This document shows positions 9,055-30,970 of a DNA stretch of 64,000 bases, in pieces; the first letter of the stretch is position 1, and the number at the start of each line of letters is the position of its first letter. The notes under the pieces were generated by a model. That model saw only the letters and a list, made by a program, of their open reading frames with translations, ran no database searches and was not told the DNA's origin. This DNA comes from a virus, in IMG/VR virus record IMGVR_UViG_3300017971_000203; one strand, 5' to 3'. A program made the position numbers and the translations under genes.

Positions 9055-9804
9055 ATGCTACAGCACCTGATCGACAAAGGCCGGAAGCTACTCGAAGCCC
9101 GCCCGATACCGCTTCCGAAGAAAGCCATCAACAAAACCATGAAGCGGCTCGTCGACCACCTGGAAGCGGCCTTCACAGAGCACGAGAAGGACTCCCCAGG
9201 AGAGCCACTCGGGAGCGGCATCTGGGCAGTAGCAGATCTCGACGTCACCGATGTGCTCGGAACAAAAAAAGCAATCCAGGTGATGATCCACTCCACGAAC
9301 TCTTCAGGCAACTCCCTAGGCGTCAACGCCCACTACAACGTCCGCACGAACGACATCGACATCTACATCCGTGGGCAGATCCCCGGGCAACTGGCTCTCC
9401 AGCTCCTCCGAGGAAAAGGCCGACGCAGTATCGAAGGCTCCATCCGGGACCTGCTCGAGCACGAACTCACCCACGCCCTCGACAACCTGCGCTGGGACCC
9501 TTCCACGTACAAGGGCTTCTTCTCCGACGACTACGAAGCCTCCGACGAAGGCAACGCCGCCCAGCTCCGCGACTTCAAGCGCTACGTCAACCAGCGCATC
9601 GAAGTGAACGCCCACATGCAACAGGTGGTGTCCCAGGTCCTCGTGGCCGCCGAGAAGTTCGCCCGGATTCTGACGAAGAAGTCCCCCCAGCAGCGGGTCC
9701 GCTTCCTACTGAAGCAGTCCGACACCTGGAAGGCCATCGGGAAGTATCTCAACTCCCGCAACAAACGGCGCATCCTGAAAGCGGTCTACGCAGCGCTGTC
9801 CTAG
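9055..9804 (+). CDS. Zincin-like metallopeptidase, putative internal head protein
   Basis: HELTH plus downstream EVNA; N-terminal LIDKGRKLLEA tag. Confidence 0.7.
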   Translation: MLQHLIDKGRKLLEARPIPLPKKAINKTMKRLVDHLEAAFTEHEKDSPGEPLGSGIWAVADLDVTDVLGTKKAIQVMIHSTNSSGNSLGVNAHYNVRTNDIDIYIRGQIPGQLALQLLRGKGRRSIEGSIRDLLEHELTHALDNLRWDPSTYKGFFSDDYEASDEGNAAQLRDFKRYVNQRIEVNAHMQQVVSQVLVAAEKFARILTKKSPQQRVRFLLKQSDTWKAIGKYLNSRNKRRILKAVYAALS

Positions 9805-10742
9805 ATCACGCCCATGTCCTGGAGCACAGTCACGACGCCCTTCTTGATGGTCTTCCGGCTCTTGGTCGTGAGCTGCCCCTGGATCTCGTTCCAGGTGTGC
9901 GACTGTCGCAGGAGAAACGTCACGGCCCGGCTCGGTGTCCAGGCCACGAGCTTCGACCGGTGCGCCGGTACCAGGTCCCGCACCTGGCTCGCGATCTCCT
10001 GCATGAAGGCCTTCACCTCTTCGGGCTGGTTCAGATAGCGCTTCCGAGCTGCCTTGGCGTCCTGCTTCCGCTGCTCCTTCGACGGAGGCGGCAACACACC
10101 GGCCTGCGACAACCGATCCTTGAAGCGCTGTACCGAGTGCCCGACGCCGAGCTCTTTCCGCTTCCGGGCAACCAGTCGGTGAGACACCTCGAAGCCGGTC
10201 ATCTTCAGGAGCTTCGACACCGCGCGATCCGAGAACGGGTGCAACGGATCCTCCCGCTGTAGGATCGCCGCAATGGTCTGCTGAAGCCGCTTTTTCCGAA
10301 GAACGTCCTTCGCGTGGGTGATCTCGTGCATCAGAGCGTACTTCATCGCGCCCTGAACGCTCGACATCTGAGTACCCTTCAGGAGCGGCACGATCTCACC
10401 CGCGCCAAGGTTGCCGTTCATTTGCACCTGTATGATCCGGTCCCGGGGCATGTAGACCGCACCAAGGAAAAGGCCCCTCACACCCCTCTGCTGGACGCTC
10501 ACGATCGACACGGGTATTTCCCGCTTCTTCCCCCTCACGTCCGAAACAGAGATGGTCTCGGTCCCCCAGACCTTATTCCCTAGGGGTGCAAGGGGAGACG
10601 TCCGTGCGAGGGAACGCAAAGAGGGCTCGAACTGCTTCATAAGCCGCTTCACCAGAGCCTCGACCACTTGGGGAGGCAACGCGATCGGACGCGCTTCGTC
10701 CAGGAGCTCCCGTCCCCGCTCAATGGTCTCCGAGATGCTCAT
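9801..10742 (-). CDS. Zincin-like metallopeptidase with inserted sigma54 RpoN-box DNA-binding domain
   Basis: HEITH...EVKA; insert EDPLHPFSDRAVSKLL...VSHRLVARKRKELGVGHSVQR; N-terminal IERGRELLDEA tag. Confidence 0.72.
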   Translation of the reverse strand: MSISETIERGRELLDEARPIALPPQVVEALVKRLMKQFEPSLRSLARTSPLAPLGNKVWGTETISVSDVRGKKREIPVSIVSVQQRGVRGLFLGAVYMPRDRIIQVQMNGNLGAGEIVPLLKGTQMSSVQGAMKYALMHEITHAKDVLRKKRLQQTIAAILQREDPLHPFSDRAVSKLLKMTGFEVSHRLVARKRKELGVGHSVQRFKDRLSQAGVLPPPSKEQRKQDAKAARKRYLNQPEEVKAFMQEIASQVRDLVPAHRSKLVAWTPSRAVTFLLRQSHTWNEIQGQLTTKSRKTIKKGVVTVLQDMGVI

Positions 10743-11095
10743 GACTTCTCCAGATCCGCCAGCGCCTTGTGAGCCTTGTCGGTCAACTCGTACTGCTCGT
10801 CCCAGGTTGGTGAACTCTTCCACCGACCTGTTGCATCAGCCCCCGCCGACGTCGACAGCCCCTGCCGGCGCTTCCCGACAGCCTTCACGAAACCCCTCTT
10901 CTCGAGCTTGCGGACCATGTTCAGCTCGCGCCTCGTGGTCGCAGCATCCACCCGGAACTTCCCCCCGATGGTGAACTGCAACCTGGCAACCATGGCCTTG
11001 GTCAGCTTCAGCTTCTTCGCCCGACTGAGAGCCTTCGGCTTCGCCTCACCCAAGAGCCCCCGACCCTTTTCGATTACTTCAGACAACTGGCTCAT
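10739..11095 (-). CDS. Basic, possibly winged-helix, putative internal head protein
   Basis: N-terminus MSQLSEVIEKGRGLLGEAK; RKLEKRGFV...YELTDKA wHTH-like pattern. Confidence 0.6.
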   Translation of the reverse strand: MSQLSEVIEKGRGLLGEAKPKALSRAKKLKLTKAMVARLQFTIGGKFRVDAATTRRELNMVRKLEKRGFVKAVGKRRQGLSTSAGADATGRWKSSPTWDEQYELTDKAHKALADLEKS

Positions 11096-11244
11096 GACAC
11101 CCTCCAAAAAACGACGTCCCCGAGCATACCAGCCCGGGGTCTCACAAGGGAAGACCCGACAACCAGTCCAGCCAGGACACCCCCTCAACAAGCTGCGCAA
11201 GACCCATCAGCAGCAGCAGGAGAAAAATCCCCCACGAGATCCCG

Positions 11245-11721
11245 CTACTCCGGATCCCCTTCAGCTTCGTTATGTGTCCGTCCTTGCTCCTGGGCATCTC
11301 GTATCCTCCCTCGTTCGAGCAGGTAGTCCCAGTCCACCGTTCCGTCCGCCTTGAGCGGTGTGCTGCAATCGAACAGATAGTACGCCTTCACGGGGTTCCC
11401 CGGTCCGGGCGCCGCCTTGAACCGAACGCCTGACAGCCTTCCAGATCTGTAATTGAAGGCGCCGCTCAGGAGGTCTGACTCGAGGTCTACCTCTCCCACC
11501 GTCGAAAAACGCCCCTCCTGGACCACGCTACCGTCCGCAGAGCTCCGCTCCTGCACCAGGAGGCCTGGATACCCCTCGAAGGCCGACATCACCGGAACCC
11601 AGGCCACGGTCTCTTCCAGGGTGGCACCCTCGGGCCCGAACTTCTTCCCGTCCCCGACCCCGAGGATCTCTCCATCGATGTACTGGTCCGCGTAGGACCG
11701 GATGTGGAACGACGACATCAC
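11245..11721 (-). CDS. Free-standing paralog of the MCP insertion domain
   Basis: YIDGEILGVGDG, SADGSVVQEGRF and NYRSGRLSGVRFKAAP...YYLFD align in order with the MCP. Confidence 0.75.
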   Translation of the reverse strand: MMSSFHIRSYADQYIDGEILGVGDGKKFGPEGATLEETVAWVPVMSAFEGYPGLLVQERSSADGSVVQEGRFSTVGEVDLESDLLSGAFNYRSGRLSGVRFKAAPGPGNPVKAYYLFDCSTPLKADGTVDWDYLLERGRIRDAQEQGRTHNEAEGDPE

Positions 11722-11734
11722 AAAGACCCTCCTA

Positions 11735-12103
11735 TCAGTACCTCCGGGGCCATTCCTTCAGCTTCTGATCGGCGAAACGCTCGAAGAGCCGTTCCGCCTC
11801 ACCGATCTGCTTCCTGGCAGCCAGCTTGTCCTTTGGGCTCCCATGATGCGCCTGCCGAAGCACCTCGATCAGCTTCATGGCTTCCTCGAGCTGTCTCTCC
11901 ACGTCATCCACCGCCCTTCCCAACAGGTCGACCATGCCCGGGTGCTCGCGCACGCGAAGAGCTCTCCCTGTGGTATCGTCGTAGTAGCCCAGCGCGACCA
12001 GCGTCCGGCAAAGGTGCTGCAGAGTCTCCGACTTGTCCAGATCCGCCTCCTTGAGCGCATACACAATGTCGCCCTTTCCTCGGATGTAGACAGGCATCCT
12101 CAC
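11735..12103 (-). CDS. Hypothetical protein
   Basis: Tiles the operon; a 73-nt internal fragment is duplicated at 13159-13231. Confidence 0.6.
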   Translation of the reverse strand: MRMPVYIRGKGDIVYALKEADLDKSETLQHLCRTLVALGYYDDTTGRALRVREHPGMVDLLGRAVDDVERQLEEAMKLIEVLRQAHHGSPKDKLAARKQIGEAERLFERFADQKLKEWPRRY

Positions 12104-12360
12104 CCCTTCTCAGCCAGAACCGTCCGGTCCTCCTGCACAGTGATCTTCACAGACCGCCCGCACATATAGCAGTCCCCGGAGCTCGTCCCCGGCCTGATCT
12201 TCCCGAACCACTCCATGCACGCGACGTTATTCACATGGAAGCAGTGCGGGCATGAAACGGGGAGCACTACGACCTTCGGACCGATCTTGTCCCACTCACT
12301 CGACACTGGCCTTCGGCTCCCTGCAGCCCTCCTTGCTGGACATCCACACGTCCCCGACAC
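12100..12360 (-). CDS. Small zinc-ribbon protein
   Basis: CPHC...CYMC; start uncertain (possibly near 12299). Confidence 0.5.
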   Translation of the reverse strand: MSGTCGCPARRAAGSRRPVSSEWDKIGPKVVVLPVSCPHCFHVNNVACMEWFGKIRPGTSSGDCYMCGRSVKITVQEDRTVLAEKG

Positions 12361-12580
12361 ACTCGAACGCCGTCGTCTCCCCGTCCTTCAGCTTGAAGGT
12401 GCAGGACACGTAGCCATCCCTGTCCGAGTCCTGGTTGACACAGACGATCCTCTCGACCTCCAGGCCCAGCTGCTGGGCGAAGGTGTGCGCCTGCTTCTCC
12501 GCCTGCGCTTTGTGGTCCCTGCACCCCGCAAAGGCCAGAGAAAAGCACACGAGAACGGCCAACAACACTGCATACTTCAT
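12296..12580 (-). CDS. Predicted lipoprotein
   Basis: Hydrophobic signal peptide ending in lipobox-like FAGC; four further Cys. Confidence 0.65.
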   Translation of the reverse strand: MKYAVLLAVLVCFSLAFAGCRDHKAQAEKQAHTFAQQLGLEVERIVCVNQDSDRDGYVSCTFKLKDGETTAFECVGDVWMSSKEGCREPKASVE

Positions 12581-12900
12581 CCGTCGTCTCCTCGGATAGA
12601 ACCGCGCGACCGTGGACGCACGCCTTGGAAGCGGACAATCGCTTCACCGTTGTCCGCACGAATAAACACCACACCGTCCAGCGGGAGAAACCTACCGTTC
12701 TCGAAGCCCATCATGAGATGTGCGATGGGAATAAGTACGCGCTCATTACTCTCGAGAAACTCCATACCGACTCCCTTGGAGTACCCGAGGAAAGCCTTCT
12801 TACAGGCCCCCTCGCCAAGAGCCGCTTGGTCCCTGGGATCAACCGCGAACACGAAGCCATCCCCCTTGCAAGACACCCTGACCCGGATCCCCTTCTCCAT
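12577..12900 (-). CDS. Hypothetical protein
   Basis: RBS GAGGAG; downstream of the promoter at 12954-12982. Confidence 0.6.
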   Translation of the reverse strand: MEKGIRVRVSCKGDGFVFAVDPRDQAALGEGACKKAFLGYSKGVGMEFLESNERVLIPIAHLMMGFENGRFLPLDGVVFIRADNGEAIVRFQGVRPRSRGSIRGDDG

Positions 12901-12953
12901 CCGTTCGTCTCCTCGGATAGAACTACACGCCCGAAGGCGCCTGTACTACGAGT

Positions 12954-13094: not shown

Positions 13095-13187
13095 ACGGCT
13101 CATATCGGCCGGAACGAAAACCGGGCCTCGCCCGGTAGTCCGCGCGCTTACAGGTTCTGCACGCGAAGAGCTCTCCCTGTGGTATCG

Positions 13188-13289
13188 TCATAGTAGCCCA
13201 GCGCGACCAGCGTCCGGCAAAGGTGCTGCAGCCTTTGCCTCGCCCAAGAACTCCCGGCCCTTCTGGATGGTCTCTGACAACGAACTCAT
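13188..13289 (-). pseudogene. Truncated tagged-protein gene (chimeric remnant)
   Basis: MSSLSETIQKGREFLGEAK fused out of frame to a copy of 11950-12022. Confidence 0.7.
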
Positions 13290-13378
13290 AGCTTCCTCCT
13301 CCAAACAACGACGACACCGAGCATAGCAACCAGATCACAGAAAAGGGATGTCCCTACAGGACATCCCCTACGAGCAGA

Positions 13379-13752: not shown

Positions 13753-14085
13753 CTACAGAGCTTTCAACTTCGCGAGCACAGCCTTCTCGATCTTCATCTG
13801 AAGGCTCATGGGAACGCCAAGACGAGAACCCGCCCCCGGAGAAGTCTCTCGGTGAAGCTTGGTATCGGGAAGAACCTGTCGCACCAGCCCCAGATCAATT
13901 TTGTCCAACTCGAGGTGTATCGGAAGGGTCTCCCCCCACACGCGAGTCTTCCTGTAGATCGTCTCAATCCCGACCTTGACCGTGGGACCGTGTTTCGACC
14001 GGATGACAGTCAACTTGATCCCTCCAGCTTTCGCTTCGTCGAAAAGCTCTCGACCCCGGTCCACTGCTTCCGACAATCTGCTCAT
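13753..14085 (-). CDS. Putative internal head protein
   Basis: N-terminus MSRLSEAVDRGRELFDEAK; RBS AAGGAGG. Confidence 0.65.
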   Translation of the reverse strand: MSRLSEAVDRGRELFDEAKAGGIKLTVIRSKHGPTVKVGIETIYRKTRVWGETLPIHLELDKIDLGLVRQVLPDTKLHRETSPGAGSRLGVPMSLQMKIEKAVLAKLKAL

Positions 14086-14203: not shown

Positions 14204-14227
14204 TTACAGGTTCTGCACTCGCAGCTG
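14204..14227 (-). repeat. Duplicated 3' end of the MCP gene
   Basis: Identical to 15495-15518; a 15-nt copy is also at 13148-13162. Confidence 0.85.
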
Positions 14228-14232
14228 TCCGG

Positions 14233-14520
14233 TCACATATCCTTGCCCGGTTGCGGTCGCAACACGCCTTGCTTTCTCGCTTGCGCCTCAATCTGCTCCC
14301 ATGCCACCGAATGAGGTAGACCAGAGGCCTTCACCACCTTGGTAACCGCCTTCGTGGCCCTTTGATAGAAACGTTCCTCTTGACGAGGCGAAGCATAACC
14401 GACAGACCCTAGATACAAACGCATCGCCTTGACTGCCGCATTCAGTACCCCCTTCGGAGGCATCTTCACCTCACTCAACAGCTCCCGCCCTCGTTCCACC
14501 GCTTCTGATAGCTTACTCAT
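14233..14520 (-). CDS. Putative internal head protein
   Basis: N-terminus MSKLSEAVERGRELLSEVK; RBS AGGAGG. Confidence 0.65.
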   Translation of the reverse strand: MSKLSEAVERGRELLSEVKMPPKGVLNAAVKAMRLYLGSVGYASPRQEERFYQRATKAVTKVVKASGLPHSVAWEQIEAQARKQGVLRPQPGKDM

Positions 14521-14569: not shown

Positions 14570-15412
14570 TCAAGCACAGGCTCTGCGCTTCCGCGTGTAA
14601 CACGCCGAGCACAAGCCCTTCGCCAGCACCGGCTTCTCGTTACATTCTTCACAGAGCGTCCCCTTGCCCGTCTTCCGCCGCCCCTTCCACCAGCAGGCCT
14701 GACACTGGTCCTCGCGCGTGACCGGCCGCCCGCACGCGCACAAGGCCATCTGAACGTCCAAGTAGTGCTCTCTGGCTTCCCGGTAGACCTGATACTTCGT
14801 CTCGTTCCTGATATGCTCGGGCGCCTCGAGGTACAGATAGTCGAGCACGAGGATCGCCTTCGAACCCGTCCACTTCACGGAATACCAAAAAGAGCGGCCC
14901 TTACACTGCTCCACGATCGCCGCCCTAGACACCCCTGTCCAGCGCATCAACCGCACACGCATGGTCTGGAGAAACGTGCGACACGCGCTCGAATACATAG
15001 CCAGAGGGTAGTCGTTGCCCTGCCCCTTCCCCCTCTTCGACAGAGACACGTGGCCATCGGCATCCCAGAGACCACGGAAGAAATGCGGCTCCAGCTCCCG
15101 CGGCAACTCCAGGGGCCACCGGAGGTCATGCGTCTTCGGCCCGCAGATCCCAAAGCGCTCTTCCACAAGCTCTACGAGCTGCTTCGAGTCCGCATAGGCC
15201 TGAACAGCCCTGACGCCCTTCCTGATGCGCTTCGGCGTCTTCTCCGGGGCAAACAACGCCAGCCAACGCTCGGCTGTGGCGCGGTTCCCAACCATGCTGA
15301 CACGGTAGGTTCCGCGCTTCGCGTAGACGTTCCCGTCCCCGTAGAGCACCCCGAGCCACCACGCCAGCTCAGGCGACCACCCTTCGAAAAAGCCCCAGTT
15401 GATCACCGCCAT
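14570..15412 (-). mobile_element. Free-standing double-motif LAGLIDADG homing endonuclease with C-terminal zinc fingers
   Basis: WLGVLYGDG and FFRGLWDADG motifs; CAC..CQAC and CEEC..CSAC. Confidence 0.85.
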
Positions 15413-15494: not shown

Positions 15495-16997
15495 TTACAG
15501 GTTCTGCACTCGCAGCTGCCCATAATATTCCGATCGGAGCAATTTCTTCGCGTATCGCGTGCGAAGACCCTTGCGGAAGCTCATGTCGTTCGGATCGAGG
15601 AAGGTCGGAGTTACCTGCAGCGGAATGTAGGGAGCCCACACGAACCCACTGTCGAGGTAGCTGGCGCCCTTCAGCCCGATCAGGGCCATGTCGCTCTGGA
15701 AGAAGGGGTCGATGTAGACGACCCACTTGTTCATAAGCGTGCCGTTCTTGTACACGCCGAACTGACCGTGCTGCGTCATGGGACGCGGCATGTCGAGCGG
15801 CGCACCGAACTGCGGACCCGAACTCCAAATGGGCCGGAAGTCGCCGTGGGTGGTCAGCTGCTCGATGAGCGCGCTGATCTCGGGCGAGGTGACGATCCAG
15901 TTGGCCGGCGCACGCAGCGTGGCTTTGTGGATGCCGTTGGACACCCGGCTGAAGCTCGTGATGATGCTCCGCAGGTGGTCGACCTCGCTGATCCCGGCGG
16001 GCGGGATGCGATCGAAGACGTCGGTCGTCCCGGTGCTGGCCAGAAAGAGATCCGTGATGATCTCACGATCGATCTCGAGCGCCATCTCCTGGGCGGCGGC
16101 GGAAACGAGCTCGGCCTCGGCCTCGATACCCTGGAGCGCCCGGAGGTCCTCAGCGGCCTCGCTGGACCACAGAGCCTTCAGGCGACGGCTCTCGGCCTCG
16201 ATGACGGCCTTCTTGACGTCGAGCTTCATCCTCGGGAGGAGGGTGTTCAGCTCACCGTCGTAGCGGTAGTACATCTTGATCTGGTTGCCGTTGAGCGGCG
16301 CAGCATCGAAGAAGACTCCCGCAATCGCACCGTTCGAGTAGTTGAGCGTACCCGCAGTGAGATTGCTGGTGGCACCGGTGTCGGCGGTCCCGTCCGCAAG
16401 GAAGAAGCCTTCCTGCACGGTGCTTCCGTCCGCAGCACTGATCTCACGGATGATCACCTGGATGCCGCGATCGGTGCTGGGCTTGTGGACCGGGGTGAAC
16501 GACAGGCTGACCGACAGAGGCGTCTGACCAGACACGTAGTTGATGCCGTCACCAACTGCCAGAACCTCGCCGTCCACATACTCGGACGTGTAGTTCTGGT
16601 TGAAATCGCGCGGGAAGATCTCCCCTGCCGTGACCGCACCCTTGGTGGTCGCGTACACGTAGTCCAGATAGAAGACTGCGCCTTGCGGTGCGGTCATCGG
16701 CTGAACAGAGACGATCTCGTTCGCGATGAGATTGGGGAACACCCGGGTGAGCACCGGGAAGATGAACTTGGTGAAGTAGCCCACGTTGATGGCGCGGGTC
16801 TCTTCCGACATGGCACGGAGGTGACGGGCCTGATTCTCGAACAGCATCGCCAGGCAGCCCTTGCGATACATATCGAAGGGCGTGCGGCCGGGCATGCCCT
16901 CCATCAGGTCGTCCCACTTCTCCACCAGGACACTGACCAGTCGCTGGTCGGCGATCGTCCCCGTGCTGTCTTCGATGATCATTCGACGAGCTTCCAC
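15495..16997 (-). CDS. Major capsid protein (T4 gp23-like)
   Basis: EKW, LFENQ, VQPMTAP, RLKALWSSE, LEIDREI, WAPYIPL and GLRTRYA motifs; GTG start after AAGGAGG. Confidence 0.95.
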   Translation of the reverse strand: MEARRMIIEDSTGTIADQRLVSVLVEKWDDLMEGMPGRTPFDMYRKGCLAMLFENQARHLRAMSEETRAINVGYFTKFIFPVLTRVFPNLIANEIVSVQPMTAPQGAVFYLDYVYATTKGAVTAGEIFPRDFNQNYTSEYVDGEVLAVGDGINYVSGQTPLSVSLSFTPVHKPSTDRGIQVIIREISAADGSTVQEGFFLADGTADTGATSNLTAGTLNYSNGAIAGVFFDAAPLNGNQIKMYYRYDGELNTLLPRMKLDVKKAVIEAESRRLKALWSSEAAEDLRALQGIEAEAELVSAAAQEMALEIDREIITDLFLASTGTTDVFDRIPPAGISEVDHLRSIITSFSRVSNGIHKATLRAPANWIVTSPEISALIEQLTTHGDFRPIWSSGPQFGAPLDMPRPMTQHGQFGVYKNGTLMNKWVVYIDPFFQSDMALIGLKGASYLDSGFVWAPYIPLQVTPTFLDPNDMSFRKGLRTRYAKKLLRSEYYGQLRVQNL

Positions 16998-17029
16998 CTC
17001 GCCCTCCTTTGGTGAGAACAACAAACTGG

Positions 17030-18679
17030 TCAGGCCCCCGGGGGCAGCAGCGGCCTGAGATCCTCAAGTGAACATGATAATCCGTTGTAGCCCCCGGAAT
17101 CCTCGGAGACGAGTTGACGCCCGCCCCTCGGCTTCGGCCACGGCTCCTCTTCGTCGCGCGGCGTGCCTCTAAGACCACCGCCGAACTCTTCGCTCAGCCG
17201 TGCAGCAAGCTGCCGCACAGACTCTCTTCCTCTCTTCTTCGGCCGACTCTCCTCGATGAGAGCATCGACCTCTTCCTTGGAGTCGATCGACTGGACCGAC
17301 TCCAGGATGGACCGGATCTTGTGCGCGTGCGGATTCGTATGCAGACGCTGCTCGGCGTACAGGCGAAGACCTGTGACCTTCAGGGCCTCCAGAGCCTTCT
17401 CCAGAGCCAACTCGAGCTTCCCACTGCGCTCAATGAGCTCGGCCCTCTCTTCCTGCGCCTTCTCGTGCCGCGCTTCCTGCAGAGACGCGAGGTCCCCCAG
17501 CTCAGCCAGCGCTGCGTCCACACGCTCCTGGAACTCTTCCACGGAAGCGTACTCCGTGACATCCCCGACTAGCCGCCTCACGCGATTGGCCTGTGGGTGC
17601 CCAGAGACAGCCCGCTCGAGGTAGCAGAGATAGCCGGCCACCTGGGCGGCCTCCATCATCTCTTCCACCTCCTCCTGGAGCTCCTCGATCCGGGCATCCC
17701 GCTCTTCCAGCTGCGCCCGGAGGTCCGCCAGCTCTGCGTCCTTTGCAGCCAGGACATCCACGGACTCCTCGGACAGCATGAACGGACTCAAGATTTGGGA
17801 GATCTGCTCGAGCGCCAGGGCCTTCTGCGTCTCCGCCGGGTCCGCCGAAAACTCCTCCCGGACCTGCTCCTCGACCTGCGCCCGAATTTCGCCCATGCGG
17901 GACAAGAGCATCTCGGAGAGCTTCGCCTCCATCTCGTCCCGGACCTGGACCTTCGCGATCTCGAGGGTGTCGTCATCGACGCCCTCGACGTGCACATCCG
18001 GCACCTCTTCGGTCAGCGGCGTCACCTTGAGCTCCACGCCCTCGAAGAGGAACCTGCCGGAACCGGTATCGACATCTTCGCTCACGAGCTCGGGGTAGGC
18101 ATCCTGGTCCGCAGGATCCGCAACGAAATCGAACGCGACAAGCCGGTAGTCCTCCTGGACCACGTCCTGCCCGCGCTGGTTGGGCTTGGTTGTCCCGTAG
18201 CCCCTGGAGCTGACGCCCACGCGGCAACCGCTCCTGAGAAGAGCCGCGAGGTCCTTGCCCCGGCTGGTGGGAAGAATCTCGGCTTCACCGTAGATCTTCC
18301 CGTCCTGGCCAACGGTCAAGTTGGTGATGATATGAGATACGCGGGAGAGCGCGGTCTTTCCATCGGAGGGGTGATCGAGCTCTCCGAACACCTTCCGCTG
18401 ACCGAAGCTGCTCTCGAGACGCTTGATCTCACGCTCCCAGAGGGGCAGCGGGTAAAGGCGCTTGTTCTCTGTCGCCTCGTCATACCGCCCGAACTCTCCA
18501 CGAACACGAACACGACCAGTACGCTTGTCCTCCAGAATCTCCAGAGGGGCCAGCTCGTCCAGAAACTCGCGAAGTACGGGAAGGTCGCCGTTGATGGCAA
18601 CGGAGTCCTCTGTCAGCACCTTGTCCGCCATTTGTCCTGCCTCCGAAACCGGCAAGCTGGTTTGTTGGACGCCCGCCAT
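17030..18679 (-). CDS. Prohead protease (gp21-like) fused to coiled-coil scaffold
   Basis: NKRLYP, GELDHP, GVSSRG and FDFVADP motifs; acidic coiled-coil C-terminal half. Confidence 0.92.
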   Translation of the reverse strand: MAGVQQTSLPVSEAGQMADKVLTEDSVAINGDLPVLREFLDELAPLEILEDKRTGRVRVRGEFGRYDEATENKRLYPLPLWEREIKRLESSFGQRKVFGELDHPSDGKTALSRVSHIITNLTVGQDGKIYGEAEILPTSRGKDLAALLRSGCRVGVSSRGYGTTKPNQRGQDVVQEDYRLVAFDFVADPADQDAYPELVSEDVDTGSGRFLFEGVELKVTPLTEEVPDVHVEGVDDDTLEIAKVQVRDEMEAKLSEMLLSRMGEIRAQVEEQVREEFSADPAETQKALALEQISQILSPFMLSEESVDVLAAKDAELADLRAQLEERDARIEELQEEVEEMMEAAQVAGYLCYLERAVSGHPQANRVRRLVGDVTEYASVEEFQERVDAALAELGDLASLQEARHEKAQEERAELIERSGKLELALEKALEALKVTGLRLYAEQRLHTNPHAHKIRSILESVQSIDSKEEVDALIEESRPKKRGRESVRQLAARLSEEFGGGLRGTPRDEEEPWPKPRGGRQLVSEDSGGYNGLSCSLEDLRPLLPPGA

Positions 18680-18867: not shown

Positions 18868-19905
18868 TCAGTTTCCCTCCTCGTCCTCCTCGTTCTTCTC
18901 ACCCTCGTCGTCGTGGCCCTTGCCGCACTTCTCGGCCAGGCCGGGATCGCCCGTGAGGCTCTCGTAGAGCTCCGCGCCATCGAGGAGGTGCTTCATCTGA
19001 CGCTGGAACGCCTCGACGATCTCAGCGTCTTCGGCAGAGAACTCCTCTTCCTCGAGGCCTTCCGCGAGTGACCCCGCTGCCACGCCAAGCTTCGCATACG
19101 CAGCTGCGAGCTCATCGTAGCGTTGCCCCTTGTCCTCCTGATGGAACTGGGCGAACGCCTCGGAGAGCAACCCCGAGATCTCCTCGATGAAACGGAAGCT
19201 CTTGATCGCGTCGTCGGACCGACCATCGTCCACTTCGCCCACGAGGCCTTCGATCCCCTCGATGAGGTTCGCAACCTTCGTGTCCGCGGACATCCCGAGC
19301 ACGCCCGTGAGGCGCTTCTTGCCCTTCTTCAGGACGTCGCCGAACTTCTTCTTGATCTTCGCGTACTTCTTGGCAAATCGACGACCGAGCCCGGACTTGC
19401 GGAACTTCTTGGAAGCCCGCGCCAGAGCGGCCTTCTTTCCACGACGTCCTTTCTTGCGCTCACGGGCCTTCTTGCGCGCTTCGGCACCGAACATCTTCTT
19501 GAGGAACTTGAACTCCACCAGGGGCAGTTCATTGTCCTCACAGAAGCTCTTGAGAGCACGCCCCATGTCCTCTTCACTGAGGTCATCGGGATCGATGTCG
19601 GCTTCTTCGAAAGCCTCGAGAACACCGAGTGCCAAATCGAGGCGCTCTTCGGTGTACTCCTCCTCCTGGAAGAGATCCATGAGGTCTTCGACGACCCTAT
19701 CTTCCTCTTCCCCGAGGTACTGCTGGAGCTCCTCCTCGGTGAACTCGGCACCCTCGCCTTCGAAGTCCTCCGCGGTCTGCGCCTCGACATCGTCGTCTTC
19801 ATAGTCAGAAGCGTTCCCCTCCGCGAGGACTTGTTTCCTCGGGAGTTGAAGCCCCAGCGCTTCGAAGTCTTCCTTCAGAGATGGCACCACGATGTTGGTC
19901 GGCAT
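18868..19905 (-). CDS. Prohead core/scaffold protein
   Basis: Acidic with a central Lys/Arg block; between portal and protease, like T4 gp67/gp68. Confidence 0.6.
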   Translation of the reverse strand: MPTNIVVPSLKEDFEALGLQLPRKQVLAEGNASDYEDDDVEAQTAEDFEGEGAEFTEEELQQYLGEEEDRVVEDLMDLFQEEEYTEERLDLALGVLEAFEEADIDPDDLSEEDMGRALKSFCEDNELPLVEFKFLKKMFGAEARKKARERKKGRRGKKAALARASKKFRKSGLGRRFAKKYAKIKKKFGDVLKKGKKRLTGVLGMSADTKVANLIEGIEGLVGEVDDGRSDDAIKSFRFIEEISGLLSEAFAQFHQEDKGQRYDELAAAYAKLGVAAGSLAEGLEEEEFSAEDAEIVEAFQRQMKHLLDGAELYESLTGDPGLAEKCGKGHDDEGEKNEEDEEGN

Positions 19906-19914
19906 TCTGTCCTC

Positions 19915-20820
19915 CTACTCTCCTGCGGCCTCCCACCTCTGCGCGACCGCTGCGATGAACTGTACTGCTACATCAAGGTCGGGGAGTCTCTCCGCCGTTG
20001 CTTTGCAAAGCCTACTGAGAGCCGCTTCTTCCTGCAACTGCTGCGAGGCCTCTCGGAGAGAGCGACGAACGTCATCGAGGTTCAAAGCCAGGTCCTCACA
20101 GAACGCTTCGAAGGAGTCCTCGAGACCGCCCGAAAACGCTGCCCTTTCGGACAACTGCTCCAACGAGCATCCCACCGTGGCTAACAACTCGTCAAGACCT
20201 TCGACCAGCTTTTCAGCATACTCAACTACCGAAGTATACTCGCTTTTTCCTGCAATCCCCCGGAAATACTTGATTTCGGACGCTTCGCACTCGTCAAGTC
20301 CGTCCGAAAGAAAGCTCTCGATGGCTCCCCTCTTGTCTTCGATGAGGGACAACCAGGGGCGCTCGGACCCTAGATGTGCCTCAATGAGGCCTTCCACGAG
20401 CTCCATCTCCGAAGGAGGCTTCGGGGGCACCAATGACGCCACTTCCAGGAGGCGGTCGAAGGCTGCCTCCGAGTCCCCCTCCAAAAAGGAAGAGACCGCT
20501 TTCCCAACCTCTTCTTCGACGTGCTCCCACACGTTCTCTTCTTTCACCACTGGGAGGTCAACCTCTGACCAGCGCTGTACGACCAGCTCACCGTCATTCC
20601 TCTCGAGCATGACCAGCCCGAAGCGCCCGTCCTCGGACACGACAAAGACGTGATCCTCGAACGTCGCCACTCGACTGAAGCGGACACCGTCCTCGAAGAC
20701 CGCCTCTTGAGACGACCGAAGAGCGTTGTCCACGGCGGCCAGATGCCTCTCGTAACTCTTCCCGTTGAGATGGAGAGTTTCGAGCACCTCCGACTTGACG
20801 AAGAACTTGTTTGAGCTCAC
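19915..20820 (-). CDS. Acidic hypothetical head-module protein
   Basis: Overlaps the portal stop; tiles the operon. Confidence 0.6.
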   Translation of the reverse strand: MSSNKFFVKSEVLETLHLNGKSYERHLAAVDNALRSSQEAVFEDGVRFSRVATFEDHVFVVSEDGRFGLVMLERNDGELVVQRWSEVDLPVVKEENVWEHVEEEVGKAVSSFLEGDSEAAFDRLLEVASLVPPKPPSEMELVEGLIEAHLGSERPWLSLIEDKRGAIESFLSDGLDECEASEIKYFRGIAGKSEYTSVVEYAEKLVEGLDELLATVGCSLEQLSERAAFSGGLEDSFEAFCEDLALNLDDVRRSLREASQQLQEEAALSRLCKATAERLPDLDVAVQFIAAVAQRWEAAGE

Positions 20821-22581: not shown

Positions 22582-22917
22582 TCAGCCCCTCATAGACAGT
22601 TGCCGCACAAACGCGACCACAAACTCATCCGAGTTGGCCCGGATGGCTTTCGACAGCTTGTTCGCGACGATCCCCGGCAGCTGCTCCATCTCGCCGTAGT
22701 CCGCCGGCCGAAGCCCGACCGACTCCAACCCGGCCGCGACAGCCTGCGCCGCCAGAACGGCCGACTGCCGGACCACGTCGTCATACGGCAGAAGAGAAGC
22801 CACCTCCGCCGCCCTGTCCGCATCGACCTTCGCCGGGGACAAAGCCCGGAAGCCAGCGTGACGGACGCCGAAAACGCCTTCGAGGACCTGCTTCACATCT
22901 TCAGGTGGACCAGCCAT
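22582..22917 (-). CDS. Hypothetical protein
   Basis: Translationally coupled between terminase and portal. Confidence 0.6.
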   Translation of the reverse strand: MAGPPEDVKQVLEGVFGVRHAGFRALSPAKVDADRAAEVASLLPYDDVVRQSAVLAAQAVAAGLESVGLRPADYGEMEQLPGIVANKLSKAIRANSDEFVVAFVRQLSMRG

Positions 22918-25900
22918 CAGAAAGGTATGTCCGTTCCGCTTTGGATGAAGAAGTCCAGCACCGGGTCATTCTCCAGACTCGGCGACCGCAACTCCTCGTT
23001 CGCCAGCGCCGCTTGGTAGCCGGCTTCCAGTGCATGTTGCTGCTCTGCCATCCAGGGCATCGCATCAGGGTCGGCGTGGGTTGAGATGCCCTTGAGCATC
23101 GCGATCGGCATCTGCACAGGCTGCTGCAGCAGAGAGTACAAGCACCCCGCAAGTGCATCGGACACATCCTTCGACCCGCCGTCCGGCTTCGTGACCTTCC
23201 GCCTCTCCCAATCCGCCTCGAGACCACGCAGCTGAGAGAACAACGGTTCATAGTAGTAGCAAGACACCCGGTCTTCGTACAGGGCCGACTTCACATTCTG
23301 GTAAGGATCCCAGGTTCTGTCCATGCTGACCTGGCTCGTAGAGAAACCAGCCTTGTCCAGCTGCTGCAGACTCTCAATAGCCTGCCACTGGTCCATGGAC
23401 ACGCTCCGCACCGGATACCCGTGCTCGACGAACTCGTAGATCAGCTTCCGGTACAGCGCAAAGTCCAGCTCTCCTCCGACCGGGGGCACGATCTCGAGAA
23501 CGAAGTCCACCACGAACAGAGGGGCCTCGTCCGGGTACGCCGCCAGCTTCGAATCCCTGCGCTGGACCCGCTTCGTCCCCGCGATGTGGCCCATGCAGAA
23601 CCCGGCAGAGCAGTTGTTGAGAGCGGGGTCGATGTGCACGTGACGGACAGCGTGGGGGTTGAGCTTCGGCTGCAACACCGTCACCCAGCGCCCCTTCGGA
23701 TCCCGAACCTTCACCTTCTCGACCAGCTTCGACCAAACGACCCCGCCACCCTTCGACGGGTCCAAGACCTCGTGCGTAAAGGGGTGCTCGCGGGTGTCGT
23801 CCTTCATACCCAAAATCTTGTGGATCCGGTGAATGAACGGAGACATCGCGACCGTGGCCACCCCAGCGAAGTCCCGGATGCCGCCCTCCAAGTCGCCTTC
23901 GAAGTCCAACCGGAAGTCGTCCGGCACCTCGATGAGGACCGTCCGCTCTGGGGTGTTCTCCTGCAGGACCTTGAGCTCGAACTCGTCCTCCACGAACTTG
24001 CTCGGAATCTGCTCGTTCCCGCACAAGACAAAGAAGCTGTTGTCCATGCTGTGGTCTGGCTGCACATCCCAGAGGGAATAGTCCCGAACAAACACAGTAG
24101 GATCCGCCTTCGCCTTCCCGATCCGCTTCGCGAGGAAAGAGTCCCGGGTCGACTTCGACGACGGCAGGAAGAGCTTCCACTGCCTGCGATACCGAGAGAT
24201 GAGCCGGCGCCGCAGGTTGTCGTAGATGTCCTTCGCCATGTTCACCACGCCGAAACGGTTGTCGTCCTTGCGGGAACGCCGCTTCGGCATGAAATTGGTC
24301 TCGTCGATGAGCGCCGCGATGGGAGACATACCCAGGGCGCTCCGGGGCGTCGTGGCCTTCGCGACCACCAGAACGTTGTTCGGGAACCGGATGTTCTTCT
24401 GCGTGGCCCGAAACGGGAAGTGCTCCGCGAAGTAGGGCGAAGCAGCGATCTTCCCGATGACGTTCTTGAGCACGACCTCTTTCGCGAGGTCCTCACTGGC
24501 GGAGAAGCCTGCCACAGACACAGGCGTGTCCGCGCCGACACCCAGGGCTCTCTGAGGATCGTGCATGCACGAGAGCTCGTAGAGCACCCGACAGATGCCA
24601 ATAGAACTCACGAAAGTGTTGTGAATGACCACCCCGTTCGCTACGAAGTTGTGGTCTCCAGGAACACTCAGGTCGAACACCTCCCGAACACCTGAATCCT
24701 CAACGCTCCGAACACGCTCCCATAGAATGTCCGACCCTGCATACCAGGCCCACTCCCCCGAGTATCCGGTAGCGTCCACAAACGCCTCAAAGCGACTGCG
24801 ACTGCTGTGACGCCCTCCCAGAGCGAACCGCTTCTTCAGCCCGCACCCCCGATCTCCAAGTTCTTCAAACGCCGCAGATAGGCGCGCCTTGTCGACAGGC
24901 ACCACATCCGTATTCGTCGACTCCCGAACGGAAGACACCGAAAAGCAGGCGTCCCGTAGAGCCGCGCTAGCGCTCTCCTTCCCCTTGATATCCCCGAGGC
25001 GCTCCAGAAACCTCAAAACGGCCGAGCGACCACTGACGCTGAGCCGATAGGCCATCGAAGACCGCTTCTCCCCGAGATGCGTGTAAGTCTTCCGACAGGG
25101 CGCATGACGGGAAGGAATACCCAAACGAAGGAGAAGAAACTGGATGTCCCGTACCATGCGCTCCGAGGCAAGCGTTATCTCCGCCGTCCTGTTGTGCAGG
25201 TTCAGATGACCATCACACGACCAGATCCGGTTGAGGAACAGCGCTAGCTGGTCCTCCGGTAAACCGTAGAAAGCGGCCGGAACGCGCTTCCCCGCAGCGG
25301 TGTGCGCGAGATCGTACCTCTCTACAATCCACTTCATGCCGCGCGAACGATACGTAGTCGCCTGACCCGAGTTCGCATCCTTGACCGGAACAGCCGAGGA
25401 AAGAGAGGGGTCGGTCATCCGGGCTCGATCCGCGAGGCGCTCCGTACACTCCGCGTACTCTTTCAACACTTCCGGCTGCATATTCGTGAACGTGGGCATC
25501 GGACCCGTACACCCGCCGTCCGCCAGGAGATAGCCCACCACCTTCACCTCGTCGTCCGATACCGTCGGACCACTATCCGGGGAGGGCAAGGAGCGCGGGG
25601 TCGCAACCAGATCCGACACAGATATCGACTCGGCAGGGAGCCACCCACGCCCTGTCAATACGGGGTGATCTGTACTCAGAACAAGGGACTGCCCACTCAT
25701 CAACCGCAGTGTCACGCACGGCTTCCTGCCCGAAGGGAACGCGGTAGCGTCCGACACTCGAGACCTTCCCTCGGCGGAAAAAGACTGCACCTTGAGCGCC
25801 TCCAGGTCGCGGACGCGGGAGCGCCGCCCTGTAGAGACGTCGAACACTTCCGTGTCCCCATCGACACACTTCCCGTACCCGATAGCCCCCGTGAAGATGA

Positions 25901-26231
25901 TCTCGTTGTAGTCGCCCTGGAAAATCTCCACGAGATCGTCATAGAGCTTCGGATAGAGGACGTCGCAGGTCTCCCCGAGGTAGTAGGGGTCGTAGACGAA
26001 AGTGTGCATGTCGACCAGAGGGCGCTTGTAGTGCGCGCTGGTCATCGAATCAATCAGCCGGTCGCCTTCCCCGAGGAAGTCGAACTCCGGATCGGACGTG
26101 GCCTCTTCCAGGATCTTGAACAGGACCGCACGCTCCTCCTCGGAGAAACTCTCGAGGTCCTTCATGATGAGCCCTTCCAGCTCATCAACGGTCTGCGTCG
26201 ACCACGCCCTTCCTTGACCCTCGTGAATCAT
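22917..26231 (-). CDS. terL: Terminase large subunit with intein
   Basis: Walker A GAIGYGK|T split by the intein; LIDE Walker B; RNase H-like HIDPA...SKDVSDA. Confidence 0.9.
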   Translation of the reverse strand: MIHEGQGRAWSTQTVDELEGLIMKDLESFSEEERAVLFKILEEATSDPEFDFLGEGDRLIDSMTSAHYKRPLVDMHTFVYDPYYLGETCDVLYPKLYDDLVEIFQGDYNEIIFTGAIGYGKCVDGDTEVFDVSTGRRSRVRDLEALKVQSFSAEGRSRVSDATAFPSGRKPCVTLRLMSGQSLVLSTDHPVLTGRGWLPAESISVSDLVATPRSLPSPDSGPTVSDDEVKVVGYLLADGGCTGPMPTFTNMQPEVLKEYAECTERLADRARMTDPSLSSAVPVKDANSGQATTYRSRGMKWIVERYDLAHTAAGKRVPAAFYGLPEDQLALFLNRIWSCDGHLNLHNRTAEITLASERMVRDIQFLLLRLGIPSRHAPCRKTYTHLGEKRSSMAYRLSVSGRSAVLRFLERLGDIKGKESASAALRDACFSVSSVRESTNTDVVPVDKARLSAAFEELGDRGCGLKKRFALGGRHSSRSRFEAFVDATGYSGEWAWYAGSDILWERVRSVEDSGVREVFDLSVPGDHNFVANGVVIHNTFVSSIGICRVLYELSCMHDPQRALGVGADTPVSVAGFSASEDLAKEVVLKNVIGKIAASPYFAEHFPFRATQKNIRFPNNVLVVAKATTPRSALGMSPIAALIDETNFMPKRRSRKDDNRFGVVNMAKDIYDNLRRRLISRYRRQWKLFLPSSKSTRDSFLAKRIGKAKADPTVFVRDYSLWDVQPDHSMDNSFFVLCGNEQIPSKFVEDEFELKVLQENTPERTVLIEVPDDFRLDFEGDLEGGIRDFAGVATVAMSPFIHRIHKILGMKDDTREHPFTHEVLDPSKGGGVVWSKLVEKVKVRDPKGRWVTVLQPKLNPHAVRHVHIDPALNNCSAGFCMGHIAGTKRVQRRDSKLAAYPDEAPLFVVDFVLEIVPPVGGELDFALYRKLIYEFVEHGYPVRSVSMDQWQAIESLQQLDKAGFSTSQVSMDRTWDPYQNVKSALYEDRVSCYYYEPLFSQLRGLEADWERRKVTKPDGGSKDVSDALAGCLYSLLQQPVQMPIAMLKGISTHADPDAMPWMAEQQHALEAGYQAALANEELRSPSLENDPVLDFFIQSGTDIPF
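24618..25868 (-). mobile_element. LAGLIDADG intein in TerL (417 aa)
   Basis: CVDGDT...VIHN|T; GYLLADG and RIWSCDG motifs. Confidence 0.92.
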
Positions 26232-29863: not shown

Positions 29864-29906
29864 CCCGCCTCCTTCACCGAGATGCTATAGAGTCAAACCG
29901 CAATGG

Positions 29907-30116
29907 TCAAGACCGAGGTCCGAACACGTACACCTTGTCGGAGTGCGCCTTCCGTTTCTTGGCCGCGATGGCGTTGGCTTCTTTCTCGGTGTCCACGTGC
30001 GCGATGAGGTAGAGCTCTTCCCCCGGCTTCTCGAACGAGTCGACACCGACCACGTTGTAACCGCTCTCCGGGACGAACTGCTTCTTCTGCGCCAGGCGCT
30101 TCGACATGCTGCTCAT
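29907..30116 (-). CDS. Small hypothetical protein coupled to the SAS gene
   Basis: ATGA overlap with the SAS stop. Confidence 0.6.
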   Translation of the reverse strand: MSSMSKRLAQKKQFVPESGYNVVGVDSFEKPGEELYLIAHVDTEKEANAIAAKKRKAHSDKVYVFGPRS

Positions 30117-30970
30117 TTCCGTCTCCTTAGTCGGACCTTCTCGGGGTTGATGCAGCCGAAAAAGTTCCGAGCCACATCAGGACAAGGCGGCGGCTCCACG
30201 GGGTCTTCCCCCTTGTCCGCCTTGAAGATGAAGTCGCTCATGTCGGCAGAGTACTTGTCCAGCTCTCCCGACCCGTGCTCGAGCGCAACCTCCTGCTCGG
30301 GAGTCTGCGGCTTGTAGACATCGTGCGACCACTCTGCAAAGTCGTGCTGCCCCGGCGTCCGGATCTGGAGCTCCTTGGTCATCCCGTCTTCGTCGACCAC
30401 GGTGAAGTGGTAACTCCGATAGTCACCGCGCGGGTTGTTGACGTAGTCGTCGTCGAAGACCACCTCATAGTTCTCCTGGACCTTCTTCGCCGTCTCGAAG
30501 ACCTGCTCGAGGTCGTCCACCTCGATCCGGATGCCCGTGGCATCTGTGATCATGCCCGGACGGGGATACTTCCAGTCTTCCCACTTGCCCGGGTTGCGCA
30601 CGATCTTCCCCAGGATGCTCTCCATGGTTTTCACACGCCCCGTGATCCGGGCTCCTTCCGGCGCCATCGCGCTGAGACGCTTCTTCGCCTGGTCGAAGCC
30701 CGCTGCGTGCTTCTGCCGGAGCTCTTGCGCCTCGGCAACATGATCGGCCAAAGACATCCCGGGCTCGAGAATCCCGGAATCGACGATCTTCCCGAGCTCC
30801 TTGATGACAGAAGAATGGGCCTCCCCGCCCCCGGTCCTGCGCTCCTTCACACGAACCCACGTCCCGTCCGGTAGTTTCATGTGCGGGCCGCGCTTACGTT
30901 GTCGGACCGTCCACGGAGGGTAGGTGAGCTCTTGCAGGATCTTCCGGCCTTCCTCGATCAAGCGCTTCAT
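30113..30970 (-). CDS. RelA/SpoT-family small alarmone synthetase (SAS)
   Basis: GRVKT.ES..K, DATGIRI, DDY..NP..YRSYH and ELQIRT...HDFAEWSH..YK; N-terminal LIEEGRKILQE tag. Confidence 0.88.
   Translation of the reverse strand: MKRLIEEGRKILQELTYPPWTVRQRKRGPHMKLPDGTWVRVKERRTGGGEAHSSVIKELGKIVDSGILEPGMSLADHVAEAQELRQKHAAGFDQAKKRLSAMAPEGARITGRVKTMESILGKIVRNPGKWEDWKYPRPGMITDATGIRIEVDDLEQVFETAKKVQENYEVVFDDDYVNNPRGDYRSYHFTVVDEDGMTKELQIRTPGQHDFAEWSHDVYKPQTPEQEVALEHGSGELDKYSADMSDFIFKADKGEDPVEPPPCPDVARNFFGCINPEKVRLRRRK

What the first reader, a model, noticed from the sequence alone, without database searches (positions are those of the whole stretch)
9055..30970. Shared N-terminal tag on seven proteins: probable capsid-targeting signal for injected effectors
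Seen: MLQHLIDKGRKLLEA (9055), MSISETIERGRELLDEA (10742), MSQLSEVIEKGRGLLGEA (11095), MSSLSETIQKGREFLGEA (13289), MSRLSEAVDRGRELFDEA (14085), MSKLSEAVERGRELLSEV (14520) and MKRLIEEGRKILQEL (30970). The bodies after the tag are unrelated, except for the two zincins. Known: T4 internal proteins use an N-terminal capsid-targeting sequence removed by gp21 after (I/L)-x-E, and a gp21-like protease is encoded here. Inference: a distinct modular packaging signal defines a payload (peptidases, DNA-binding proteins, alarmone synthetase) delivered with the DNA. The tag could be used to mine effectors or load capsids.
Basis: partly seen in the sequence, partly recalled or inferred. Interest (0 to 1): 0.85.

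Follow-up and report, generated by a model that had tools for sequence, protein, structure and literature searches.

The report
Head-loading tag on phage accessory proteins
An uncultured T4-like phage starts six otherwise unrelated accessory proteins (plus one broken remnant) with the same 15-18-residue peptide. The peptide ends in the motif that T4-type head proteases cut, so it is most likely a lineage-specific version of T4's known "load into the capsid, then trim" signal, though nothing has been shown by experiment.

Summary
Exactly seven ORFs start with M-S-x-L-S-E-x-[IV]-[EDQ]-[KR]-G-R-x-[LFI]-[LF]-x-E-[AVL]. They score 22-42 bits against a tag profile; the next best six-frame hit scores 5.6 bits. 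One of the seven (13289) is a 33-codon recombination scar, so six are intact.

About half of the conserved residues use different codons in any pair of the five tags compared, so selection acts on the peptide. The bodies are unrelated except for two HExxH paralogues. Five of six are very basic (pI 9.7-11).

Six of the genes lie in a cassette island just after the gp23-type capsid gene, and that island is missing from the closest relatives. A gp21-type (S77) protease-scaffold fusion lies next to the capsid gene. Conserved [L/I/M]-x-E sites occupy the expected cut positions in the capsid protein and the protease. Six tags end in L-x-E and one in F-x-E.

The best reading (about 0.6) is a T4-CTS-like packaging and processing tag. 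It is a new variant of a known kind; this scan has noted similar tags in other phages.

Limits:
- The tag occurs nowhere else in about 7 billion proteins or two contig collections, so it cannot be used to mine effectors elsewhere.
- "Zincin" rests on the HExxH motif alone.
- Earlier scan notes report a second, different N-terminal module elsewhere in this genome.
- Packaging is untested.

The parts
9055..9804 (+). Tagged gene t9055: 249-aa HExxH protein. The tag is MLQHLIDKGRKLLE|A, a short variant, with the putative cut after E14.
   Evidence: 24.4 bits; GC3 0.81; tag is helix 2-14, linker 15-21, body from residue 22.
9801..10742 (-). Tagged gene t10742: 313-aa HExxH paralogue of t9055 with a sigma-54 DNA-binding-domain insert. 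Its ATGA start overlaps the stop of t11095.
   Evidence: PF04552, E 5e-9; 32.4 bits; 36% identity to t9055.
10739..11095 (-). Tagged gene t11095: 118-aa protein with a very basic body (pI 10.7) and no known family.
   Evidence: (37.9 bits).
13188..13289 (-). Tag-only remnant t13289 (33 codons). The tag is fused out of frame to a 73-nt copy of 11950-12022, followed by a copy of the capsid-gene 3' end. It is a recombination scar, not a cargo gene.
   Evidence: 41.6 bits; repeat D1 at 99% identity; D2.
13753..14085 (-). Tagged gene t14085: 110-aa protein with a basic body (pI 10.3). The tag ends F-D-E|A.
   Evidence: (39.1 bits).
14233..14520 (-). Tagged gene t14520: 95-aa protein with a basic body (pI 10.4). 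It shares a cassette with the LAGLIDADG endonuclease gene.
   Evidence: (36.7 bits).
30113..30970 (-). Tagged gene t30970: 285-aa RelA/SpoT-family (small alarmone synthetase-like) protein carrying a divergent tag, MKRLIEEGRKILQE|L. Its ATGA start overlaps the upstream 128-aa ORF. It lies outside the island.
   Evidence: PF04607, E 7.5e-16; 22 bits; the nearest homologue has no tag.
17030..18679 (-). gp21-type prohead serine protease (S77) fused to a scaffold-like C-terminal part; the presumed processing enzyme.
   Evidence: PF03420, 51.6 bits; T4_CASP weak; PHROG 207, E 2e-45.
15495..17024 (-). gp23-type major capsid protein. A conserved [L/M]-x-E|[E/D]-T-R site lies at the expected propeptide boundary.
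   Evidence: (PF07068, E 3e-67).
18868..20820 (-). Two acidic proteins (345 aa and 301 aa, pI 4.5 and 4.4) between the portal and protease genes. Both are conserved in relatives and rich in L/I-x-E. They are candidate prohead-core proteins.
   Evidence: no family hit.
14570..15412 (-). LAGLIDADG homing endonuclease, the first gene of the cassette inserted at the capsid-gene end.
14204..14230 (-). Copy of the capsid-gene 3' end (26 of 27 nt) marking a cassette boundary. A weaker copy lies at 13148-13174.
   Evidence: family D2; terminator-like hairpins follow each copy.

Best explanation
The shared peptide is a capsid-targeting and processing propeptide, working like the T4 capsid targeting sequence (CTS).

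Proposed mechanism. The first 15-18 residues form a short amphipathic helix. This helix would dock the newly made protein onto the acidic scaffold/core of the assembling prohead. After the shell closes, the gp21-type protease would cut after the invariant Glu (L-x-E|A). The acidic tag is released and the mostly basic body stays inside with the DNA, to be ejected into the next host. The cargo would be four intact proteins with no known family (two of them HExxH paralogues, one carrying a sigma-54 DNA-binding-domain insert), plus a RelA/SpoT-family enzyme.

The genes are accessory cassettes. They accumulate by recombination just downstream of the capsid gene.

Shown here: the tag, its position, peptide-level selection, modularity, the protease gene, and the cassette structure.

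Inferred: docking, cleavage, packaging and ejection.
For: - Seven N-terminal copies stand far above background.
- About half of the conserved residues use different codons in any pair of the five tags compared, so the peptide is what is selected.
- The bodies are unrelated apart from one paralogue pair.
- The nearest homologue of the RelA/SpoT body (40% identity) has an unrelated N-terminus, so the tag is a module.
- Six of seven tags end in L-x-E and one in F-x-E; five are followed by Ala. This matches the T4 gp21 rule of L/I-x-E and a Glu-Ala bond (PMC9026906).
- An S77 protease is encoded next to the capsid gene.
- Conserved [L/I/M]-x-E sites sit at the expected propeptide boundaries of the capsid protein and the protease in all relatives.
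- Five of six bodies have pI 9.7-11, whereas most tags and the core proteins are acidic. T4 internal proteins are likewise highly basic (PMC8442874).
- AlphaFold puts the t9055 tag in a separate low-confidence helix, followed by a Pro-rich linker before the folded body.
- The island is absent from relatives whose capsid protein is 86% identical, like the hyperplastic internal-protein genes of T-even phages (PMC3012670, PMC9026906).
Against: - There is no virion proteomics; the phage is uncultured.
- The tag shows no detectable homology to the T4 CTS and is longer.
- An L-x-E inside a Glu/Leu-rich helix is not rare by chance, and because the tags are related it counts as one observation, not seven.
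- One tag has F at P3.
- The tag was found in no relative or other sequence, so there is no comparative support.
- The RelA/SpoT body is not basic and its gene lies in the replication region.
- Sigma-70-like promoters precede some island genes, so late expression is not established.
- Earlier scan notes report a second, different N-terminal module on many proteins elsewhere in this genome, and one earlier case of a shared phage tag turned out to be linked to an enzyme rather than the capsid.
Confidence: 0.6

Rival explanations
1. The tag is a docking peptide for some other common partner, such as a modifying enzyme, a chaperone or a host target. The proteins would act in the infected cell without being packaged.
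For: - G11-R12 is invariant in all seven tags, which suggests specific recognition.
- An earlier scan case (phage RB43) linked a shared leader to a radical-SAM enzyme rather than to the capsid.
- The same genome is said to carry a second N-terminal module.
- Sigma-70-like promoters precede some island genes.
Against: - No candidate partner enzyme appears among the window's annotated genes.
- This reading does not explain why the tag ends in L-x-E-Ala, why the bodies are basic, or why the genes sit next to the head genes.
Confidence: 0.2
2. The tag is a by-product of how these genes arise. A portable 5' module (promoter, ribosome-binding site, start codon and first codons) is reused when new bodies are captured by recombination. 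The peptide would be kept for expression or stability, not for targeting.
For: - The 13289 scar shows a tag 5' end joined to foreign DNA.
- The sequences upstream of 11095 and 13289 are nearly identical.
- Cassette boundaries carry copies of the capsid-gene end.
Against: - The upstream regions of the other tags differ, and two tagged genes start by ATGA coupling with no shared upstream module.
- Synonymous divergence with retained residues, including the invariant G-R and Glu, points to a function of the peptide itself.
Confidence: 0.12
3. The tag is a degradation or timing signal (an N-terminal degron) that limits the lifetime of early accessory proteins.
For: It is a short, exposed N-terminal helix on unrelated proteins. 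Some of these proteins are potentially toxic, such as the RelA/SpoT enzyme.
Against: The tag does not resemble any bacterial N-degron motif known to me (my own knowledge). The link to the head module is left unexplained.
Confidence: 0.08

Closest known systems
[quoted passage not shown]
   Same: - An N-terminal peptide shared by otherwise unrelated, mostly basic, non-conserved proteins.
- The peptide ends in hydrophobic-x-Glu followed by Ala.
- A gp21-family protease and a gp23-type capsid are present.
- The genes are accessory and variable between relatives.
- Conserved hydrophobic residues at positions 4 and 8 recall T4's targeting and processing residues 4, 7 and 8.
   Different: - The tag is 15-18 residues rather than 10.
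- It has an invariant Gly-Arg in the middle and the cut motif at position 15-17.
- It shows no detectable sequence homology to the T4 CTS.
- The cargo includes a RelA/SpoT enzyme and HExxH proteins.
- The genes lie in a cassette array at the capsid-gene end.
- Nothing has been tested experimentally.
T4 Alt, a packaged and injected ADP-ribosyltransferase with propeptides cut by gp21 (PMC9026906)
   Same: An enzyme, rather than a small DNA-associated protein, is proposed to be loaded through a protease-cut propeptide and delivered with the DNA. This parallels the tagged RelA/SpoT protein.
   Different: The enzyme family and the propeptide are different. Alt is processed at both ends; no C-terminal site was examined here.
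Propeptides of inner-body and ejection proteins of giant phages phiKZ and SPN3US, cut by gp21 homologues after Glu (PMC9026906, PMC5694885, PMC7411985)
   Same: A diverged S77 protease cuts N-terminal propeptides of many head-internal proteins after Glu. Those propeptides hold redundant cut sites; five of the seven tags here also hold a second L/I-S-E near position 4-6.
   Different: Those propeptides are long and do not share one common tag. Their cut motif has a small residue at P3.
CTS-like leader families noted earlier by this scan in other uncultured T4-type phages
   Same: A short shared N-terminal leader that matches the inferred cut site of the phage's own head protease, on unrelated proteins.
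   Different: Those families have 20-50 members per genome and relatives elsewhere. This one has seven copies and was found in one phage only. These are AI notes, not published work.

Membership tests
T4-type capsid targeting sequence / internal protein system | The same peptide at the extreme N-terminus of otherwise unrelated proteins | tested here: met
T4-type capsid targeting sequence / internal protein system | The peptide ends in the prohead-protease motif L/I-x-E, with the cut before a small residue | tested here: met
   Six of seven tags end in L-x-E and one in F-x-E. Five are followed by Ala. The rule comes from PMC9026906.
T4-type capsid targeting sequence / internal protein system | A gp21-family (S77) prohead protease in the same genome | tested here: met
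   PF03420 at 51.6 bits against a cut-off of 27; PHROG 207 at E 2e-45.
T4-type capsid targeting sequence / internal protein system | Sequence homology to the T4 CTS, MKTYQEFIAE | tested here: not met
   Comparison by eye with the CTS printed in PMC8442874 shows only a loose pattern match (M-x-x-hydrophobic-x-E-x-I/V). The tag is 15-18 aa, not 10.
T4-type capsid targeting sequence / internal protein system | Cargo genes are non-conserved and hyperplastic between relatives | tested here: met
   The island at 8.8-15.4 kb is absent from relatives with 86% capsid-protein identity. Its cassettes are bounded by repeats.
T4-type capsid targeting sequence / internal protein system | The proteins are found in the virion with the tag removed, and the tag suffices to package a foreign protein | not testable with these tools
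   This needs virion mass spectrometry and fusion assays.
RelA/SpoT homologue (small alarmone synthetase-like) for t30970 | A RelA_SpoT nucleotidyltransferase domain above the curated cut-off | tested here: met
   PF04607 at 58.9 bits against a cut-off of 27. Distant matches to solved small alarmone synthetase (SAS) and RelA synthetase domains.
Zincin metallopeptidase for t9055 and t10742 | An HExxH motif within a zincin fold or family profile | tested here: inconclusive
   HExxH is present in both. There is no Pfam or PHROG hit and no convincing PDB fold match. Atlas look-alikes are unnamed phage proteins; LPD23 and M78 appear only as weak leads.

The most novel reading that the evidence does not exclude
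The phage pre-loads its capsid with an address-tagged, exchangeable set of effectors. These include a RelA/SpoT-family nucleotide pyrophosphokinase and an HExxH protein carrying a sigma-54 DNA-binding domain, both injected with the DNA to reprogram or disarm the host at time zero. New cargo is recruited by fusing the tag to captured genes in a cassette array at the capsid-gene end. I know of no report of a virion-delivered alarmone-synthetase-type enzyme.
Probability: 0.35. Interest if true: 0.7.

Novelty: new variant of a known kind. Interest (0 to 1): 0.5.

Why it matters
If the tag works as proposed, it identifies by sequence alone which proteins of an uncultured, very divergent T4-type phage travel inside the capsid. 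It also extends the CTS principle to a longer, unrelated peptide. Among the candidate injected enzymes is a RelA/SpoT-family protein, which would be a new kind of pre-packaged host-takeover or counter-defence tool. The cassette array and the tag-only scar show how such cargo sets may be reshuffled. The practical value is limited, because the tag is confined to this phage and the principle has been known from T4 since the 1990s.

Tried and rejected
**Searches for the tag elsewhere (all negative)**
- A profile search of 1.84 billion representative proteins returned only the window's own proteins plus PPR-like repeat proteins that match by repetition.
- A word search of 5.8 billion proteins returned only the window's own proteins.
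- Degenerate DNA patterns in IMG/VR and in JGI metagenomes gave only internal chance matches in helicases, NuoG and similar proteins.
- Twenty-six related loci (352 kb) were scanned by regex, by shared-N-terminus search and by HMM, and none holds the tag.
- blastn of the island against the phage collection found no match.

The other ~89 kb of the ~153-kb phage could therefore not be scanned.

**Other attempts**
- A DNA- or RNA-level element was rejected because of the synonymous variation between tags.
- Rfam found only tRNAs in the island region.
- AlphaFold of the 118-aa protein failed (pLDDT 45).
- Foldseek and VIA-align of the HExxH protein gave no clear fold.
- A weak resemblance of the tag to the protease N-terminus (LREFLDELAP) scored only 1 bit and is left as a note.
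- A 5.5-bit hit in relatives turned out to lie in a 32-codon non-coding frame.
Full report
**1. The observation**

9055 is on the + strand and the others are on the - strand. A loose regex over all six frames finds only these seven, against 0.18 expected in shuffles. A profile of the tag scores them at 22-42 bits, and the next best six-frame segment in 64 kb scores 5.6 bits.

The consensus is M-S-x-L-S-E-x-[IV]-[EDQ]-[KR]-G-R-x-[LFI]-[LF]-x-E-[AVL]. M1, G11, R12 and E17 are invariant. The copies at 9055 and 30970 are shorter and more divergent.

In five of the seven a GGAGG-like ribosome-binding site precedes the start Met. At 10742 and 30970 the start instead overlaps the upstream stop as ATGA, and 9055 has only GGGAG further upstream.

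In pairwise comparisons of the five MS(x)[LI]SE-type tags, 3 to 10 of the 11-14 identical residues use different codons. The peptide is therefore what is conserved, not a DNA or RNA element or a recent duplication.

One correction is needed. The ORF at 13289 stops after 33 codons. Immediately after the tag it continues, out of frame, into a 73-nt copy (99% identical) of 11950-12022. That copy joins a copy of the capsid-gene 3' end. It is a recombination scar, so six tagged genes are intact.

**2. The proteins**

Without the tag, the bodies show no similarity to one another, except for the 9055 and 10742 proteins (36% identity, E 1e-26).
- Both of those carry HExxH, but they have no Pfam or PHROG hit.
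- An AlphaFold model of the 9055 protein (pLDDT 76) finds no convincing PDB fold by Foldseek or VIA-align.
- Its ESM Atlas look-alikes are unnamed phage protein clusters, with LPD23 and M78 only as weak leads. 'Zincin' is therefore unconfirmed.
- The 10742 protein holds an insert matching the sigma-54 DNA-binding domain (PF04552, E 5e-9).
- The 30970 protein has a RelA_SpoT domain (PF04607, E 7.5e-16) distantly like solved small alarmone synthetases.
- Its nearest homologue in 5.8 billion proteins (40% identity over the catalytic part) has an unrelated 109-residue N-terminus, so the tag is a separable module.
- The three small proteins (118, 110 and 95 aa) match no family.

Five of the six bodies are strongly basic (pI 9.7-11.0). 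Five of the seven tags are acidic (pI 4.4-5.1); the short variants at 9055 and 30970 are not (pI 8.3-8.4).

**3. Context**

The window is part of an uncultured phage; its proteins occur on three contigs, the longest 153,100 bp. It has a T4-type head module on the - strand:
- an intein-bearing large terminase;
- a gp20-type portal;
- two acidic conserved proteins (pI 4.4-4.5);
- an S77 protease fused to a scaffold-like part;
- a gp23-type capsid protein.

No cultured phage is close. The best capsid-protein identity is about 35% to an uncultured phage record and about 32% to the nearest cultured phage.

Six tagged ORFs lie directly downstream of the capsid gene, between it and a tRNA block. With them lie a LAGLIDADG endonuclease gene, a free-standing copy of the capsid insertion domain and two untagged ORFs.

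In the nearest relatives (86% capsid-protein identity) the same interval is only about 1.3 kb and holds none of these genes. Copies of the last 27 nt of the capsid gene recur at 14204-14230 (26 of 27) and 13148-13174. Each is followed by a terminator-like hairpin, and they bound the cassettes. This confirms leads from earlier notes on this window. The island is thus an accessory, recombination-built array.

**4. Does the tag match the protease?**

T4 gp21 cuts after L/I-x-E, first seen as a Glu-Ala bond. The 10-residue CTS of IPIII suffices for packaging and is then removed. T-even internal proteins are diverse, share only the CTS, and are highly basic (PMC9026906, PMC3012670, PMC8442874).

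Here six tags end in L-x-E and one in F-x-E. Five are followed by Ala, and the next residues contain Pro or Gly. Five tags also hold an earlier L/I-S-E.

Alignment of the 26 related loci shows a conserved [L/M]-x-E|[E/D]-T-R just before the mature N-arm of the capsid protein. It also shows a conserved [L/I]-x-E just before the catalytic core of the protease. This suggests the Glu-specific rule is kept in this clade.

AlphaFold models the 9055 tag as a separate low-confidence helix (residues 2-14), followed by an unstructured linker (15-21) before the confident body. The hydrophobic positions 4, 8, 11, 15 and 18 fall on one helical face; this is read from the sequence.

**5. Distribution**

The tag was sought in four collections, and only the window's own proteins or chance internal matches came back:
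- 1.84 billion representative proteins;
- 5.8 billion proteins by words;
- IMG/VR contigs;
- JGI metagenome contigs.

The related loci hold neither this tag nor any other shared N-terminus. The tag is therefore lineage-specific. Comparative support is lacking, and the idea of mining effectors with it fails outside this genome. The rest of the genome could not be read.

**6. Interpretation**

The best-supported reading is a T4-CTS-like signal for loading into the prohead followed by trimming (about 0.6). It rests on position, modularity, the cut motif, the protease, basic cargo beside acidic core proteins, the exposed helix-plus-linker shape, and the accessory, hyperplastic locus.

Points against it:
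- there is no experimental evidence;
- there is no homology to the T4 CTS;
- an L-x-E motif in a Glu/Leu-rich helix carries little information;
- the RelA/SpoT protein is neither basic nor encoded in the head region;
- sigma-70-like promoters sit in the island;
- earlier notes say a second, different N-terminal module occurs on many proteins elsewhere in this genome;
- one earlier tag case turned out to be enzyme-linked.

The rivals are a docking peptide for another partner (0.2), a reused 5' expression module (0.12) and a degron (0.08).

**7. Novelty**

The principle is textbook for T4, and this scan has already noted analogous leaders in other uncultured T4-type phages. What is new here:
- the particular 15-18-residue Gly-Arg-containing tag;
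- its candidate cargo (a RelA/SpoT enzyme and HExxH proteins, one with a sigma-54 DBD insert);
- the cassette array with a tag-only scar.

I rate it a new variant of a known kind, with moderate interest.

Noticed in passing
window 13148-13174, 14204-14230, 15495-21: The last ~27 nt of the capsid gene (encoding ..QLRVQNL*) recur twice downstream, each followed by a terminator-like hairpin. The copies bound one cassette holding the homing endonuclease and t14520, and another holding t14085, an 89-aa ORF and the tag scar. This points to serial insertion by recombination at the capsid-gene end.
   Followed up: yes
window 11245-11721 (-): A 158-aa acidic ORF is a free-standing copy of the capsid protein's insertion domain (40% identity over 115 aa, E 7e-22). 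It could be a decoration protein, a decoy or a relic; which is unknown.
   Followed up: partly
window 9801-10742 (-), residues 142-206: The longer HExxH protein carries an insert matching the sigma-54 C-terminal DNA-binding domain (PF04552, E 5e-9). Its paralogue at 9055 lacks this insert.
   Followed up: partly
L023:11622, L006:8605, L014:4268, L013:11646; window 6480-7157 (-): In the relatives with ~64% capsid-protein identity, the first gene after the capsid gene begins with a T4-CTS-like decapeptide ending in hydrophobic-x-Glu (for example MSRITDVLAE|L and MARLQDVMDE|L), followed by a Pro-rich stretch. The window's homologue begins MAGKAKKVLEQLHGLGVLKPP.
   Followed up: no
window 17030-18679 (-), residues 36-45: The protease N-terminal region contains LREFLDELAP, which resembles the second half of the tag (GRELLDEARP). 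The profile score is only 1 bit, and the closest relatives have D instead of the final E.
   Followed up: partly
window 22917-26231, 44832-47261, 49476-51896 (-): Inteins with LAGLIDADG endonuclease domains interrupt the large terminase, an SF2 helicase and a DnaB-like helicase. Two of the intein C-terminal splice motifs are near-identical.
   Followed up: no
window 31353-38108 (-): A 2251-aa ORF with no Pfam or PHROG match lies just upstream of the 128-aa ORF and the tagged RelA/SpoT gene.
   Followed up: no
window 11096-11135 and 13290-13329 (-): The ~30 nt upstream of t11095 and of the t13289 scar are nearly identical (TG-n-TATGCT, then CGTCGTT-TTT-GGAGG). The copy before t11095 forms a hairpin over the TATGCT.
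   Followed up: partly
P0007, P0010, P0012 (not in window): The only non-self hits of the tag profile are bacterial proteins with PPR-like 35-residue repeats (..TEGRKVLDEM..GVKP..). The match comes from repetition of a similar helix-turn, not from an N-terminal tag.
   Followed up: yes
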